Shown one piece after another: positions 1-63,200 of a DNA stretch of 64,000 nt. The stretch comes from Carcharhinus longimanus (taxonomy: Eukaryota), in assembly GCA_030264375.1 (NCBI GenBank), contig JASCQW010000081.1, forward strand, positions 93,422,445-93,486,444, given 5' to 3'. How positions within the stretch are numbered: position 1 is the stretch's first letter; each line of letters begins with the position of its first letter. Made by a program: the position numbers.

Positions 1-3000
1 CCTGAAAACTGAAAAAAAAGTATACGTTCTAACCAGAAAACTTCAATTGTCAATGTTAGATGTCCATTCAACTGCAATATTCTAAAGTTTCCAAAGAAAA
101 CTGAGAGAATACCGTGTGTTCTGTTACACGGAGCCGTAGATCACTTCTGTTTTATCGGACTGTGCGCTACACCAGGGTGTTCCTTTTGTTTTTGTCCCTG
201 GTATATTAAATAGAAAGACAACAAACTAGTATTCTCATTGGCTTAAAAAAATGCAGCTCCTGTTTTGTTATCAGTCAAAATAAACACTCCTCCATTTTTT
301 TAATCGATAAAAGAGAACAAATATTAGATACATCACCTTCATTCTTCAAAACCAGCAGTTTCTCTGGGAAAAATAATTGAAAACAAGAAAGAAGTGAAGT
401 CATGCAAAACATAACTCACGAAAATCATACCTTAAGTTCATGAAGTACATTTGAAAACAAATAATGATACCATTTGAAAGTAAACTGAATATTTCAAAGA
501 AAATCGATACGTCATTTTGTTCTCACCGATATCTTTCTGAATGCCTATTAATGTTTCTCGTTCTAAATTAAAGGCAAGTATAATTATGTTAGGTGACAGT
601 ATTATTTCAAACATTCTATTTCGCCTCCAAAAGTGAGGTACAGTTGACCAGGAAGGAAATCAAACAGAAAAACACGGTCTATAAAACACTTCTTTTTTCA
701 TAAATAGTGGCAAGCTGTATTTTTAAGCTACTTCCTAAAAAAAATACTTCTGAATCATTAAATTAATTTTTCTTTCTCTTCCTTCAATGCAATGGTTAGA
801 TTCCTGATAGACTGATTTGACTCAACTTCGTCTTTCACGACTCAGATTATAAACTATGGAAAGGTACTGGAATCTGTTGATCATTCGATCTAAACATAAG
901 TTACGTGCAAATTGGGAACTTGAATGTGCTGGAGATCCAGAGAACATATTTCAACATTATAACGAAAATATCTGTTCTGTGGAAATCATGCACATATCTG
1001 GGATTTCTTTTGGAGCCTGTTATTGACACCTGGAGTATTATGTACAGTTCTGGTCTCCTTATTTGAGAAAGGATACACTGGCACTGGAGGGCGTGCAGAG
1101 GTGATTCACGAGTTTAATTCCGGAGTTGAGAGGGTTGGCTTACGAAGAGAGGCTGAGTAGACTGGGGCTATACTCATTGGAATTCAGAAGAATGAGGAGA
1201 GATCTTATAGAAACATACAAGAATATGAAGAAAATAGATAAGGTAGTAGCAGAGAAAATGTTTCCACTGGCGGGTGAAACTCGCACTAAGGGGCATAGCC
1301 TCAAAATAAGGGAAGCATATTAAGGACTGAGTTGAGGAGGAACTTCTTCACACAAAGGATTGTGAGTCTGTGGAATTTCCTGCCCAGTGAAGCAGTTGAC
1401 GCAACCTCAATGAATGTTTTTTTTTACGGCAAGGATAGATAATTTTTTTGAACAATAAAGGAAATAAGATTATGTTGAGCGGGCAGGTAAGTGAAGATGA
1501 GTGCACAAGAAGATCAGGCATGATTTGACTGAATGACGGAGCAGGTTCGAAGGGCCAGATGGCCTACTCTTGCTTCTATATCAACCGATTCCCCTTCCAG
1601 GAAACGTTCAGGCAAATCTTATCAAATGAAGTAATAAGGGATGATTTACCAGTCTTGGCTTCACGAATCATTGACTCTACATCGATAAACACGAGAAAAA
1701 CAGTAATTTTAAAATTTACCGTGCTAATATTACGATCTTTAAATGACAAAAGCAGTAGGTTTCCATTTTCCTCCGACATTAATAACTAATTACCAATGGT
1801 TTATCAATGTTCTTATTCAATTTTCCATGATGTCTGAGAGAATTATAATTTAGCCCAACACGTCTCTCTGTGTGCCATACAATAGCCCACATTATTTGCT
1901 CAACTAACTGTAGAGATTTTGCCTGGCTAGTTAATGCTGCTGTAAATAGAATCCCCCAAATTCCAGAATGTTAAACAACTGCTTAAAAATGTGTTTTCCT
2001 GCAACTGATTTTGGTAAGCTAATATTTGAAATACTCGGATCATTTTCAATTCCCACCTTCAGAAACGATAAAGGTACATTAGGTGTGATATGTTAATTAT
2101 TCACAAGAGTGGTACTGGGTTGAGATTATGCATCATGCGAGTGTTAATCAATTCAACCTGAAGTTGCTGAAGTTCAGAATAATGAGCAGAGATCTCATGT
2201 AAACAGAAATTATTCCACAAGGGGTTTGACAGAGTTTGGGCGTGTAGCCACGTGCCCCAAGTTGACAATTTAGATCACTGCTGTGCAATCCCGTGAGTAC
2301 TGAAATTAGTCAACATTGGTTCCATCACGGAATTATGAATAATTTGATTAGTTATGTTTGATCCTTATTAGTGCAGGGAAGTCATTTTTTTTTTCTCTCT
2401 CTCTCACTGAAACACCAGACATGAGCACATGGCGTATAAGATGATTTCAAGTCGATGATCGATCTTCATATTCCTGAATTGCCAAGCTGAAATGAGATGA
2501 TGTACGGTTTGCCCTTGTTTGCATATATTATCCTTGGTTTTTGTTTTAATGTTATTTGGCGATCAACATGCCGATGACAGTAAAGTAGAGATTGCTACTT
2601 TTTTTCCAGTTGGAATTTATTTTTCAATACAATTGTGTGGTGTTCAACTGCTCGGCCCACGATATTGTTCAAATTTAGCAAATTGCATGCACCGAGAAAT
2701 TCAATATCTGAGACGTTAGAAGTGGAAGTGTTGACAAAAGTAAACAGGAATGACTGCAGCAGCTGCTGAGATTCTACGCCACTATCCTGCAAAAAACAAA
2801 TCTAAATTGCTGCAAAGGGACAGAAACGACTGGGTATTGTTTAGCATAGTAACAATCCTTTTTTTGGAAAATATAGCTTCAGTCATAGTAAATATTTTCT
2901 CAGGTGGCCATTGACATCCAATTCTTGATCAAATACTGACAGGATGTCAAATGGAGTTCTCCCTCTGCTTGAATGCATATCTTACTTTTCACAAAGTGTA

Positions 3001-60200: not shown

Positions 60201-63200
60201 CAGGAAATTTGAAGTAAGTGTCTTGACCAATATTAAAATACAAATAATTCTTGAGACAAAATACAGTACTGTACCAGCATTCTGTAGTCTTTCCATTAGG
60301 TTTTCGATTTCTTGTGAGAGTATCATGAAGAAGAGGGATGGTTAGTATATTATTCTGCTAATGCATTCAGCCTACGCTGAATGAGTTCTGGCTGCAAGCA
60401 GGTCATATGTACTTCAGGCATAATTGGAGTTCCTATGCCCCAAATGCCTTCTCCTCCGATAGATAACGTTCGACAGTCCCTGGTTAATTCTCGCAATTAT
60501 CTACCTGCAATGAAGATAGAATGATGCACTACGCGGTTAGCAAATAATGTTTCAGTTATTAAATCAAAAATAAAATCGTGCAGTTTTGCAGAAAATTGTT
60601 GCACCGGGGTCACTTGACAAGAAATTAAATACTTGTCGGCACATTTCCCTTTATTAAGGGAACGTCTGAGCCAGCCATTGGCCGCTTATAGAACTACAAA
60701 TAATGTTACCAATTGGTGAATTAAAATCAGAAGCCAAGCTTTGGATTGATAACTGTGTTCACGCTGTTCTATCGTTTTAGTATAGTTGTTTAGTTATTCG
60801 TTTCGATACAGTGCAGAAGGTGAATGATGTTCGTAGGTACAGTCATCCTGGCAGACATGCGTAACAAGATGGCAGCAAAGATCAGAGACAAAATTAAGTC
60901 CTGACGTAGGGCAAAGCTTCACTGAAAATTTTGCCCATGAAGCATTGGTTCAGCGCAATATGCTAGGGCATTAGAAGGGGTGCGTAAGTTTTTGAAACAA
61001 TGACAGAGATACGCCTTGAAGACGACCAGCGTTTTACATGTTTCTGAGGAAAGCTGGTTTGATAAAGGCGCAGTGGTGTTTCTGATCGAAATATTTCAAT
61101 ATTGACTCTAATATTTCATCTACTGACCACGATGTTACTTATTAATCATGCACATGCATATAAATAACGGTTTGTGAAAAGATAAGAAGATTCTGTGCGC
61201 ATTGTGTTTTCATTCCAAACTACTTGGACGAACTAATTTGCTTTTGCATTTGTTTATCTTCACGTATATCATCAGAAGGTATATAGGAACACGGGTTAAA
61301 TTTCGAATTTTGTTTTTTTTTTCCAAGGGGGAATTATGGAGTGTGGAAATGACGGAAAATATGCTTTTGCTAGATTTGTTTTGTTTTGCTGACATCTGAA
61401 ATGTTCTTTTTCCACATTCAATTTAGTGTAAGTGTGGAGATGCCTGTTCCATCACGAAATACTGAACTGAAGACTTAAAGACTTGGGTCATTTACTGAGC
61501 AGTGGTCATTTATAATGAACCAAAATTGATGCTTATGCTTTATTAAACTTTAAAACCTGAACTATTACCACGTGATGTTTTAAAATTCGAATTCATTTAC
61601 CAATGTCCTTGGCAAGTAGTTGTCTCACTGCAGAAAAATGACACTGTGATCGGCATTTTGCGAATAACACACAATACATTTACGTCGAATTTATCCAAAT
61701 CATTTAGAACGAATAATTCAAAAATTCGTACCAATTCCTTTAACTCTAATCAAAGGTAATTATTTCACGAGTTTAAGGTATAATTAAGGTGCTAATCTTT
61801 AATGCTAGCTTTTCATTTGCCGTATTTTTGTCAGTTAGCAGTTGATCGTGTTTCATGTCAGGAAAATGTGCTTTTATCAGGTGTTTCTCTGTTCCGCAAT
61901 AAAAACTTTTACCTCTGGGATTTTAATCTTTCACAATCAGGATCAGGTTATGCAGCACAAAACGAGTTGCCAAGCGTATAATCTTGATAACAATGTCATG
62001 TCATTGTAATTTGAAAGAGAGAACACATCATTGTGTTAGATTGCAGTAACTATTTTCAAGTATATATTCTCTATTTGAGTCACGGTGGAGATCTGCTGAA
62101 CGCTGGTTGCAGGAATTAGTTACTTTTCATTGTATTTTGGTTTGGGATTATTTTACGAACAGAGTTGATTTGAGCATGGGATTCCCAAGCTGAAAAAAAA
62201 ACTGGTTTGTTGTGGTTTATCATTTATAGCAATGCAGGGATGACTGCAGGTGCAAAGTGACAGATTAAGGAGCTTATTTATACCCGTGATGTTGAATTTG
62301 GTACTGCGAAACATCTTCATTTTTTATTAACACCAAAAATACCAAAGCTTCCATCCACTTCCATATATTCGTCAATTTTGCTTATTTTAAATCATTAGTT
62401 TAGGAATTATCCATGTCTTCAAAACCGAGTGAATTTACTCTGCAGATGGATTCAGGGTTGGTTTCAAAAATGGTTTTGCCAATGAAAGTGGCCTAAGGAA
62501 ATTACAGTTTATTGTGCTTTACCAGGATTTTAAGTTCATTTCATGAAATTTCCCGTGGTTACTGACACATCCTGGCATTAGTTCAAAATGTGCTCGGATT
62601 TCGAAAACCACAATCTTGTTTTTGGATATGTTCCTCCCCTCATGACTTCTACTTGGTAAGCTAATCGAGCGAAACAACTTTGAAAGATAGCAAGATGCTC
62701 TTACTGTGGCGTATTCATTATCTACTGGGAAAGTTGCACTTTTGGTTAGGGAAAACATCACGGCAGTACTGAAGCGGGGTAAATCCGAGGGTCTGGCAAT
62801 GAGTCTATATGAGGACAACTGAAAATAAGGGAAAAATCATGGTAGGTTGTTACATAAGGTTAAATTTCACGGGATGCAGCTTGAGGTATCTAAATGTATA
62901 CAAAATTAGCGTCTTGAAAGAAGGCAGAGGATGCTTGTACAGGATTTTTTTTTTAATTGAAGACCTGTGTGCCAGTAGTGTGCCTCAGGGACGAGTGCTG
63001 GGCCCACTGTTATGTAGCATTATATTAATGATTTGGATAAGACTTTGGGAGGCATGGTTTGTAAGTTTGCGGTTGACACCGATATTGGTGGCGTAGTGGA
63101 TAGTGAAGAAAGTGTTCTCCGATTAACACGGGCTCTTGATCAATTGGGCCAGTGGGCTGNNNNNNNNNNNNNNNNNNNNNNNNNNNNNNNNNNNNNNNNN

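What the first reader, a model, noticed from the sequence alone, without database searches (positions are those of the whole stretch)
337..60310. Higher-order six-exon duplication inside the array
Seen: the run 60275/55162/53948/44005/40926/40745 (EIENLMERLQNA, ADVLRSRDD, EIKTLKEHT, NSVTDREK, EQEKLEQIRKDV, AELLLLKDE) parallels 9256/7966/6608/1650/527/337 (KIDKLNDKLQDC, EWRLQKKTE, ELEGHKKDD, ESMIREAKT, ERETLIGIQKDI, EKLLVLKNE). Hand-counted identities are 25/36 nt for the first pair and 20/27 nt for the last. Intron sizes also match: 154 vs 163 nt for the short intron and 1187 vs 1331 nt. The first intron is 5086 vs 1263 nt, and a ~4.2-kb CR1 insertion explains most of that difference. Inference: the tail grew by old multi-exon segmental duplications of a 36-27-27 cassette.
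[Added by the scan's program, not by the reader: the finding's places include an assembly gap (unread letters, written N; its length is only estimated) at 13244 to 13343, 20397 to 20423, 21261 to 21360, 26090 to 26189, 34214 to 34313, 44275 to 44284. Whether the letters on both sides are continuous or in frame is not known: test that first.]
Basis: partly seen in the sequence, partly recalled or inferred. Interest (0 to 1): 0.7.

Follow-up and report, generated by a model that had tools for sequence, protein, structure and literature searches.

The report
Old multi-exon duplication in mini-exon array
A gene on the minus strand is built from tiny 18-36-base exons that together spell a coiled-coil rod, and one run of six of these exons looks like an old, much-diverged copy of another run, which is an ordinary way for such repetitive genes to grow.

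Summary
The exons are real. They are phase-1/phase-1 mini-exons on the minus strand. Under generic splice rules there are 22 open 27/36-nt AG..GT intervals there, against 3 on the plus strand and 5.7±2.4 in shuffles.

The block parallel is carried by three of the six pairs: 60275/9256, 40926/527 and 40745/337. Each is a mutual best match in its length class, with 75-87% bootstrap support. The pairs 55162/7966 (9/27) and 53948/6608 (14/27) are at or below background, and 44005/1650 differ in length.

A test over all exon offsets gives P≈0.007. Intron flanks keep no pair-specific similarity, so the event is old.

The unit between 36-nt exons is four exons here (36-27-27-27/24), not three. No assembly gap lies within 247 nt of an exon, and block B has none.

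Verdict: a probable old multi-exon duplication, an ordinary mechanism.

The parts
61601..61627 (-). 27-nt phase 1-1 mini-exon (VRQLLAKDI), just upstream of block A
   Evidence: AG/GT sites and open frame; heptad register continues into 60275
60275..60310 (-). Block A exon 1, 36 nt, EIENLMERLQNA (type 1). Acceptor is AAG, weaker than the others
   Evidence: 25/36 with 9256, mutual best, bootstrap 0.87
55820..59326 (-). Non-LTR retrotransposon (CR1-like by domain set) inside block A intron 1; holds the N run 56179-56489 in its reverse transcriptase
   Evidence: Pfam RVT_1, Exo_endo_phos, GDSL-like esterase; atlas hit to RT clusters; piece below the gap is repeated at 38342-38671. Ends not determined
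55162..55188 (-). Block A exon 2, 27 nt, ADVLRSRDD
   Evidence: only 9/27 with its proposed partner 7966; closer to 15569 (BLOSUM62 15) and 40745 (13)
53948..53974 (-). Block A exon 3, 27 nt, EIKTLKEHT; ends in A, not G
   Evidence: 14/27 with 6608, but its best match is 37738 (16/27)
44005..44028 (-). Block A exon 4, 24 nt, NSVTDREK (N from the carried-over A)
   Evidence: one codon shorter than its partner 1650, which shifts the heptad register by one
40926..40961 (-). Block A exon 5, 36 nt, EQEKLEQIRKDV (type 2)
   Evidence: 23/36 with 527, mutual best, bootstrap 0.75
40745..40771 (-). Block A exon 6, 27 nt, AELLLLKDE; 154-nt intron before it
   Evidence: 20/27 with 337, mutual best, bootstrap 0.83
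37738..37764 (-). 27-nt mini-exon EIKQLKLDS after block A; its partner, if any, would lie beyond the left edge of the window
   Evidence: 16/27 with 53948
26883..26918 (-). Candidate 36-nt exon (xAEELKRELDRK) in the 18-kb, four-gap intron; unconfirmed
   Evidence: no close relative among the other 36-nt exons
19637..19654 (-). 18-nt mini-exon ETKLQN
   Evidence: in one heptad register with the eight exons that follow
16128..16163 (-). 36-nt mini-exon DLKKTKKALQDL, type-1-like
   Evidence: 19/36 and BLOSUM62 17 with 9256
15569..15595 (-). 27-nt mini-exon EDKLREKEA
   Evidence: BLOSUM62 15 with 55162
15396..15422 (-). Candidate 27-nt exon (xLAGNRCNE), 146 nt after 15569; doubtful
Evidence: Including it lowers heptad occupancy from 17/25 to 14/27.
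9256..9291 (-). Block B exon 1, 36 nt, (E/K)IDKLNDKLQDC (type 1)
7966..7992 (-). Block B exon 2, 27 nt, EWRLQKKTE
6608..6634 (-). Block B exon 3, 27 nt, ELEGHKKDD
1650..1676 (-). Block B exon 4, 27 nt, ESMIREAKT
527..562 (-). Block B exon 5, 36 nt, ERETLIGIQKDI (type 2)
337..363 (-). Block B exon 6, 27 nt, EKLLVLKNE; 163-nt intron before it; last exon before the window edge

Best explanation
The window lies inside one minus-strand gene of a vertebrate-type genome. This stretch of its coding sequence is cut into at least 17 symmetric phase-1 mini-exons: 18, 24, 27 or 36 nt, with the first base of each junction codon on the upstream exon. Introns of 0.15 to about 18 kb, full of transposon debris, separate them.

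The exons encode a heptad-patterned alpha-helical coiled-coil rod (inferred from sequence pattern).

The rod grew by duplication at more than one level:
- Many exons share one 5' motif (E-I-x-x-L).
- Exons are grouped in units that start with a 36-nt exon followed by 27-nt exons.
- A block of at least six exons (36-27-27-27/24-36-27, holding two distinct types of 36-nt exon) was copied as a whole, giving 60275..40745 and 9256..337.

The copy is old. The exons are about 26-36% diverged where still recognisable, and the introns no longer align. The introns also took up different transposons, for example a CR1-like LINE in the first intron of block A.

Shown: the exons, their phase, the heptad pattern, three collinear mutual-best pairs, and the LINE. 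Inferred: that the exons are spliced in this order, that a single block event produced the parallel, and that the protein is a coiled coil.
For: Exons are real:
- Generic splice rules give 22 open 27/36-nt phase 1-1 intervals on the minus strand, against 3 on the plus strand and 5.74±2.36 (max 11) in 100 shuffles. The excess is confined to lengths 27 and 36.

Coiled coil and exon adjacency:
- In block B one heptad register runs through all six exons, with 12 of 17 a/d positions hydrophobic against 14% elsewhere. The natural exon order ranks 6th of 720 orders.
- The register holds over nine exons from 19637 to 337 (17/25 against 13%).
- It also holds over the first four exons of block A, across the gapped introns (8/11; 3rd of 24 orders).

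Block homology:
- 60275/9256 = 25/36, 40926/527 = 23/36 and 40745/337 = 20/27 are each mutual best at nucleotide and BLOSUM62 level (22, 23, 25).
- Bootstrap mutual-nearest-neighbour support is 0.87, 0.75 and 0.83.
- All three pairs lie at the same offset. Offset 10 has the highest mean identity (0.574).
- The length pattern is the same except 24 v 27 nt. The short intron sits in the same place (154 v 163 nt).

Exons are better kept than introns:
- Flanks of 150 nt show no pair-specific similarity.
- The self-BLAST shows only dispersed repeats.
Against: - Two of the five same-length pairs do not group. 55162/7966 = 9/27 with bootstrap 0.00; 53948/6608 = 14/27 with bootstrap 0.04. Exon 53948 is closer to 37738.
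- The sixth pair differs in length.
- Single pairs are marginal under column shuffles: P=0.058 for >=25/36; >=23/36 is reached in 40% of trials; P=0.019 for >=20/27.
- Three mutual-best pairs at one offset occur in 10.8% of permutations.
- No intron homology was found.
- Differences in the three good pairs are spread evenly over codon positions (10/33, 9/33, 12/33). This gives no classical sign of protein-level purifying selection.
- Part of the 60275/9256 identity (12 of the first 15 nt) is a motif also present in 53948 and 37738.
- There are no transcript data, no orthologue and no gene name.
- Block A's first and third introns hold four assembly gaps that could hide exons.
Confidence: 0.62

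Rival explanations
1. There was no block event. All the mini-exons descend from one ancestral exon by many single-exon or small-cassette duplications. The A/B parallel reflects the same few exon types recurring, plus shared constraints (Glu at the junction codon, hydrophobic residues at exon positions 2 and 5, purine-rich splicing signals).
For: - Five exons of different lengths share 10-12 of their first 15 nt (60275, 9256, 53948, 37738, 19637).
- Offset 4 also carries signal (S=12.6, n=8).
- 16128 resembles 9256, and 15569 resembles 55162, outside the proposed blocks.
- Two pairs are at background.
- Three mutual-best pairs at one offset occur by permutation in 10.8% of trials.
Against: - Type-2 exons 40926/527 and their followers 40745/337 are close only to each other. 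They are adjacent in both blocks, each across a 154/163-nt intron.
- The maximum over offsets gives P=0.007.
Confidence: 0.22
2. The parallel is part of a larger tandem higher-order repeat, about ten or more exons per unit (61601..16128, then 15569..beyond the window), made by unequal crossing-over. It is not a six-exon event.
For: - Block B stops only because the window ends at exon 337.
- All three good pairs lie at offset 10 in the exon list, which equals the distance between the blocks.
- 61601/15569 = 14/27, above the class mean of 11.4, and they share L4 and K7.
Against: - 15569 is closer in protein terms to 55162 (BLOSUM62 15) than to 61601 (6).
- No 36-nt counterpart of 16128 was seen in 61628-64000.
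- The 18-kb intron with four gaps makes the exon count between the blocks uncertain.
Confidence: 0.12
3. The intervals are not exons, or the parallel is an assembly artefact (one region scaffolded twice).
For: There is no transcript evidence, and the region holds ten N runs.
Against: - Strand-specific and length-specific excess over shuffles.
- A heptad register that continues across exons.
- The two blocks differ at 26-36% of exon positions in the best pairs, and their introns are unrelated. They are therefore not two copies of one assembled region.
- Block B has no gap.
Confidence: 0.03

Closest known systems
Nebulin (NEB) triplicate region and super-repeats
   Same: A structural repeat protein whose gene grew by copying a whole run of exons. 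[quoted passage not shown]
   Different: The NEB copies are nearly identical, introns included, and recent. Its exons encode ~35-residue actin-binding modules of about 100 nt (recalled). Here the copies are old and only the exons are recognisable. The exons are 18-36 nt, and the product looks like a heptad coiled coil.
Titin PEVK exon array
   Same: A long run of short symmetric exons that can be skipped in frame, with blocks of several exons duplicated (recalled, not checked in a call).
   Different: PEVK exons are about 75-90 nt and encode proline-rich disordered spring segments. The peptides here have no proline and follow a heptad pattern.
Collagen and elastin gene architecture
   Same: Exon lengths are multiples of 9 nt (27, 36). 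As recalled for elastin and non-fibrillar collagens, each exon starts with the second base of a codon, so any exon can be dropped in frame.
   Different: There is no Gly-X-Y and no Gly/Val/Pro-rich sequence. The resemblance is in gene structure only, and the collagen and elastin facts are recalled, not tested.
Schistosome micro-exon genes (MEGs)
   Same: Genes made of very short symmetric exons with long introns. The abstract of bioRxiv 10.1101/2023.06.21.545858 (listing) gives exons of 3-81 bp and introns up to 5 kb.
   Different: MEGs are small secreted proteins of flatworms. Here the exons give a continuous heptad coiled coil in a genome with vertebrate-type LINEs. No signal peptide or end of the gene is in the window.

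Membership tests
Multi-exon (higher-order) segmental duplication within a gene | Collinear exon-by-exon homology between the two blocks | tested here: inconclusive
   3 of 6 pairs are mutual best matches with 75-87% bootstrap support. 2 of 6 are at background, and 1 of 6 differs in length. The global permutation gives P=0.007.
Multi-exon (higher-order) segmental duplication within a gene | Same exon length and phase pattern in both blocks | tested here: met
   36-27-27-24-36-27 against 36-27-27-27-36-27, all phase 1-1.
Multi-exon (higher-order) segmental duplication within a gene | Homology of the introns between paired exons | tested here: not met
   There is no pair-specific similarity in 150-nt flanks. 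The self-BLAST shows only dispersed repeats. The short introns align at z=2.45. This is expected if the event is old, so it limits the evidence rather than excluding the event.
Heptad coiled-coil protein | Hydrophobic residues at a/d positions in a register that persists over many heptads | tested here: met
   Block B has 12/17 a/d positions hydrophobic, against 14% elsewhere. The nine exons 19637..337 have 17/25, against 13%. No coiled-coil predictor or fold was run, because single exons are under the tools' size limits.
Collagen-type gene | Gly-X-Y triplets encoded by exons that are multiples of 9 nt | tested here: not met
   Exon lengths fit, but the peptides have no Gly-X-Y.
CR1-like non-LTR retrotransposon (the insertion in block A intron 1) | AP-endonuclease plus reverse transcriptase in one orientation; esterase-type ORF1 in some CR1/L2-clade elements (the last point is recalled) | tested here: inconclusive
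   RVT_1 (27.2 bits, under the cut-off of 29.6), Exo_endo_phos (25.1 against 24.5) and Lipase_GDSL_2 (27.6, under 32.9) all lie on the minus strand. RVT_1 continues up to the gap. The clade was not tested by a tree, and the element's ends were not found.

The most novel reading that the evidence does not exclude
This is a vertebrate coiled-coil rod gene built entirely in the collagen/elastin style. It would consist of dozens of 9- and 12-residue phase-1 mini-exons, each separated by kilobases of intron. It would have expanded as a tandem higher-order repeat of about ten exons, of which the six-exon parallel is the visible part. Every exon is symmetric, so splicing could set the rod's length in steps of 9-12 residues. 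I know of no described coiled-coil gene with this architecture. Five searches of the held paper library found none. That library is incomplete and the gene is unnamed, so this is not a claim of absence from the literature.
Probability: 0.2. Interest if true: 0.6.

Novelty: new member of a known kind. Interest (0 to 1): 0.3.

Why it matters
Growth of repetitive structural genes by copying runs of exons is well known, so the mechanism itself is not news.

Two points give modest value. First, it is a clean example in which exon sequence and exon-length pattern outlast every trace of intron homology. Second, the gene architecture is unusual: a continuous heptad coiled coil chopped into 9-12-residue symmetric exons. 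If transcripts confirm it, that architecture would allow the rod's length to be tuned by exon skipping.

For annotation, the practical gain is a list of mini-exons that gene finders tend to miss.

Tried and rejected
- **Naming the gene.** The other protein tools need 20-30 residues, so an exon-by-exon search was not possible.
- **Literature.** Five searches for coiled-coil genes made of 27/36-bp or mini-exons gave nothing relevant. Only listings and abstracts were seen. Supplements were not consulted.
- **Intron homology.** None was found between the blocks: 150-nt flanks, whole-window self-BLAST, short intron (weak).
- **Shared transposon family.** The family at 4473-5656 and at 41328-42948 lies in non-corresponding introns and occurs in both orientations, so it is not evidence for the duplication.
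- **Open stretch 761-841 (minus).** It looks coiled-coil-like but has no GT donor, so it is not an exon.
- **Candidate exon 15396-15422.** It disturbs the heptad register and was kept only as doubtful.
- **Extending the parallel upstream.** 61601 v 15569 is ambiguous.
- **Taxon.** The atlas search with the LINE ORF confirmed a reverse transcriptase but did not give a clade.
- **Collections not searched.** The genome collection holds only bacteria and archaea, so no related locus was sought.

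
Full report
**What is there**

The window is AT-rich (about 40% G+C) and has ten N runs. It is full of transposon fragments.

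A series of very short exons lies on the minus strand. Each has the form intron...AG | exon | GT...intron. The reading frame is open only if the first base of the junction codon is taken from the end of the previous exon, so both flanking introns are in phase 1.

Seventeen such exons are convincing (low coordinate, with length in nt):
- 61601 (27), 60275 (36), 55162 (27), 53948 (27), 44005 (24), 40926 (36), 40745 (27), 37738 (27)
- 19637 (18), 16128 (36), 15569 (27)
- 9256 (36), 7966 (27), 6608 (27), 1650 (27), 527 (36), 337 (27)

Two more, 26883 (36) and 15396 (27), are candidates.

A count that uses only generic splice rules, and no knowledge of these exons, finds 22 open 27- or 36-nt phase 1-1 intervals on the minus strand. 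The plus strand has 3, and 100 Markov shuffles give 5.74±2.36 (maximum 11). The excess is confined to the lengths 27 and 36. The array is therefore real and strand-specific.

- Ten of the twelve peptides occur exactly.
- The other two differ only in the first residue, which depends on the carried-over base. NSVTDREK follows from the final A of 53948-53974. KIDK... follows only if 15396-15422 (final A) precedes 9256; otherwise it reads EIDK....
- The identities 25/36 and 20/27 are exact.
- The six intron lengths follow from the coordinates.
- Exon 44005-44028 is 24 nt, and its partner 1650-1676 is 27 nt.
- The 5086-nt intron holds a non-LTR retrotransposon on the minus strand from at least 55820 to 59326. 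It has an esterase-like ORF, an AP-endonuclease and a reverse transcriptase. Without it the intron would be roughly the size of its 1263-nt counterpart. I did not find the element's ends, so '~4.2 kb' is plausible but unverified.

**Assembly gaps, tested first**

- No N run touches an exon; the nearest is 247 nt away (44275-44284 against exon 44005-44028).
- Block B (337-9291) has no gap.
- Block A has one gap in its first intron (56179-56489) and three in its third (44275-44284, 47631-47730, 51523-51622).
- The gap 56179-56489 lies inside the retrotransposon. The RVT_1 profile runs 5-61 and then 70-92 right up to the gap. The piece below the gap is a repeated element also found at 38342-38671. 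This fits continuity across the gap.
- The gap 13244-13343 has identical 32-nt flanks, as if two contig ends overlapped.
- Frames cannot be broken by these gaps, because each exon is self-contained. Hidden exons cannot be excluded by sequence alone.

The heptad pattern offers an independent check:
- In block B one register runs through all six exons, with 12 of 17 a/d positions hydrophobic against 14% elsewhere. The natural order ranks 6th of 720 exon orders.
- The first four exons of block A, which span the gapped introns, also keep one register (8 of 11; 3rd of 24 orders).
- The 24-nt exon then shifts the register by one residue.
- From 19637 to 337 nine exons keep one register (17 of 25). 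Inserting candidate 15396 lowers this to 14 of 27.
- For these calculations the script stepped along the exons with a running index. No joined model was stored, searched or folded.

**Is the six-exon parallel more than chance?**

Within length classes the mean identity is 18.4/36 and 11.4/27.

- 60275/9256: 25/36, BLOSUM62 score 22
- 40926/527: 23/36, score 23
- 40745/337: 20/27, score 25

Bootstrap support for mutual nearest neighbours is 0.87, 0.75 and 0.83.

The other pairs do not stand out:
- 55162/7966 is 9/27 (bootstrap 0.00).
- 53948/6608 is 14/27 (bootstrap 0.04). Exon 53948 is closer to 37738 (16/27, bootstrap 0.31).
- 44005/1650 differ in length and share only a few residues.

Permutation results:
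- Permuting exons within length class gives P=0.0037 for the sum over the five same-length pairs (91 against 71.1±6.4).
- A column shuffle that keeps position-specific composition gives P=5e-5.
Offset 10 is the best observed, and P=0.007.

Results against the parallel:
- Single pairs are marginal. Under column shuffles the best 36-nt pair reaches >=25 in 5.8% of trials and >=23 in 40%. The best 27-nt pair reaches >=20 in 1.9%.
- Three mutual-best pairs at one offset arise in 10.8% of permutations.
- Introns give no support. Flanks of 150 nt show no pair-specific similarity (reader pairs rank 2nd to 119th of 136).
- The two short introns align weakly (z=2.45; 6 of 300 shuffles reach the score).
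- The self-BLAST has 19 hits, all dispersed repeats.

**Structure of the array**

- Offset 4 is the second strongest signal. In both blocks four exons separate successive 36-nt exons, so the local unit is 36-27-27-27/24 rather than 36-27-27.
- The 36-nt exons fall into two types. Type 1 is 60275, 9256 and, more loosely, 16128. Type 2 is 40926 and 527.
- Five exons of different lengths share 10-12 of their first 15 nt. This points to a common origin of the exons, or to a shared motif (E-I-x-x-L plus purine-rich sequence).
- Differences in the three good pairs are spread evenly over codon positions (10/33, 9/33, 12/33). The exons are nevertheless far better kept than the introns. That fits selection on exon sequence as such (coding pattern and splicing signals) rather than on particular residues. 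This last point is inference.

**Most likely explanation**

An unnamed gene encodes a coiled-coil rod through symmetric mini-exons. Its array grew by duplication at several levels. One of these was an old copy of a block of at least six exons holding both types of 36-nt exon.

Block B ends at the window's edge, so the unit may be larger. A tandem unit of about ten exons fits the offsets but is not shown.

The main rival is piecemeal growth with recurring exon types. It is weakened by the adjacency of the type-2 exon and its follower across a 154/163-nt intron in both blocks.

**Comparison with known cases**

Copying of exon runs is well known. The nebulin triplicate region is eight exons repeated three times (PMC9109913, abstract seen in the listing). 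Titin PEVK is a further example (recalled).

Exon lengths in multiples of 9 nt with split codons recall collagen and elastin genes (recalled), but there is no Gly-X-Y here. Schistosome micro-exon genes share the tiny symmetric exons (bioRxiv 10.1101/2023.06.21.545858, abstract in the listing), but they are small secreted flatworm proteins.

I found no paper on a coiled coil encoded in this way. The library is partial, and I could not name the gene.

**What stayed unchecked**

- The gene's identity, its orthologues and the taxon. Single exons are below the tools' size limits, the joined step was left out, and the closed collections were not searched.
- The ends of the retrotransposon.
- Whether the gaps hide exons.

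**Verdict**

The duplication reading is probable but rests on three exon pairs plus the pattern of exon lengths and intron positions. The mechanism is ordinary, and the gene architecture is mildly unusual.

Noticed in passing
54864-54942 and 55282-55360: A 79-nt direct repeat (88.6% identical, 418 nt apart) brackets mini-exon 55162-55188. This is the block A exon that does not resemble its proposed partner. It may be a local rearrangement or the ends of an element.
   Followed up: partly
13212-13243 and 13344-13375: The 32 bases on either side of the N run 13244-13343 are identical, as if two contig ends overlap and the gap is spurious.
   Followed up: partly
13348-13417 and 47561-47630: The same repeat family (97% identical, opposite strands) abuts two different N runs. 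This suggests the assembly broke at copies of one abundant element.
   Followed up: no
9200-9235: A perfect (AC)18 run, read as GU repeats on the transcript, lies 21 nt downstream of the donor of exon 9256-9291. Any role in splicing is untested.
   Followed up: no
first 15 nt of exons 60275, 9256, 53948, 37738, 19637: Exons of three different lengths share 10-12 of their first 15 bases (class mean 5.5±2.4), encoding E-I-x-x-L. This may reflect common ancestry of the exons or a shared splicing or coding motif.
   Followed up: partly
4473-5656 and 41328-42948: Copies of one ~0.4-0.5-kb repeat (about 70% identical, in both orientations at each site) lie in introns of both blocks, but not in corresponding introns. 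It is a dispersed element with inverted copies, not a relic of the duplication.
   Followed up: partly
19655-37737: This 18-kb intron has four N runs. The heptad register breaks between exons 37738 and 19637, and a good-looking 36-nt candidate exon sits at 26883-26918. Exons may be missing from the model here.
   Followed up: partly
28472-28565: A 48-nt unit is repeated twice at 97% identity.
   Followed up: no
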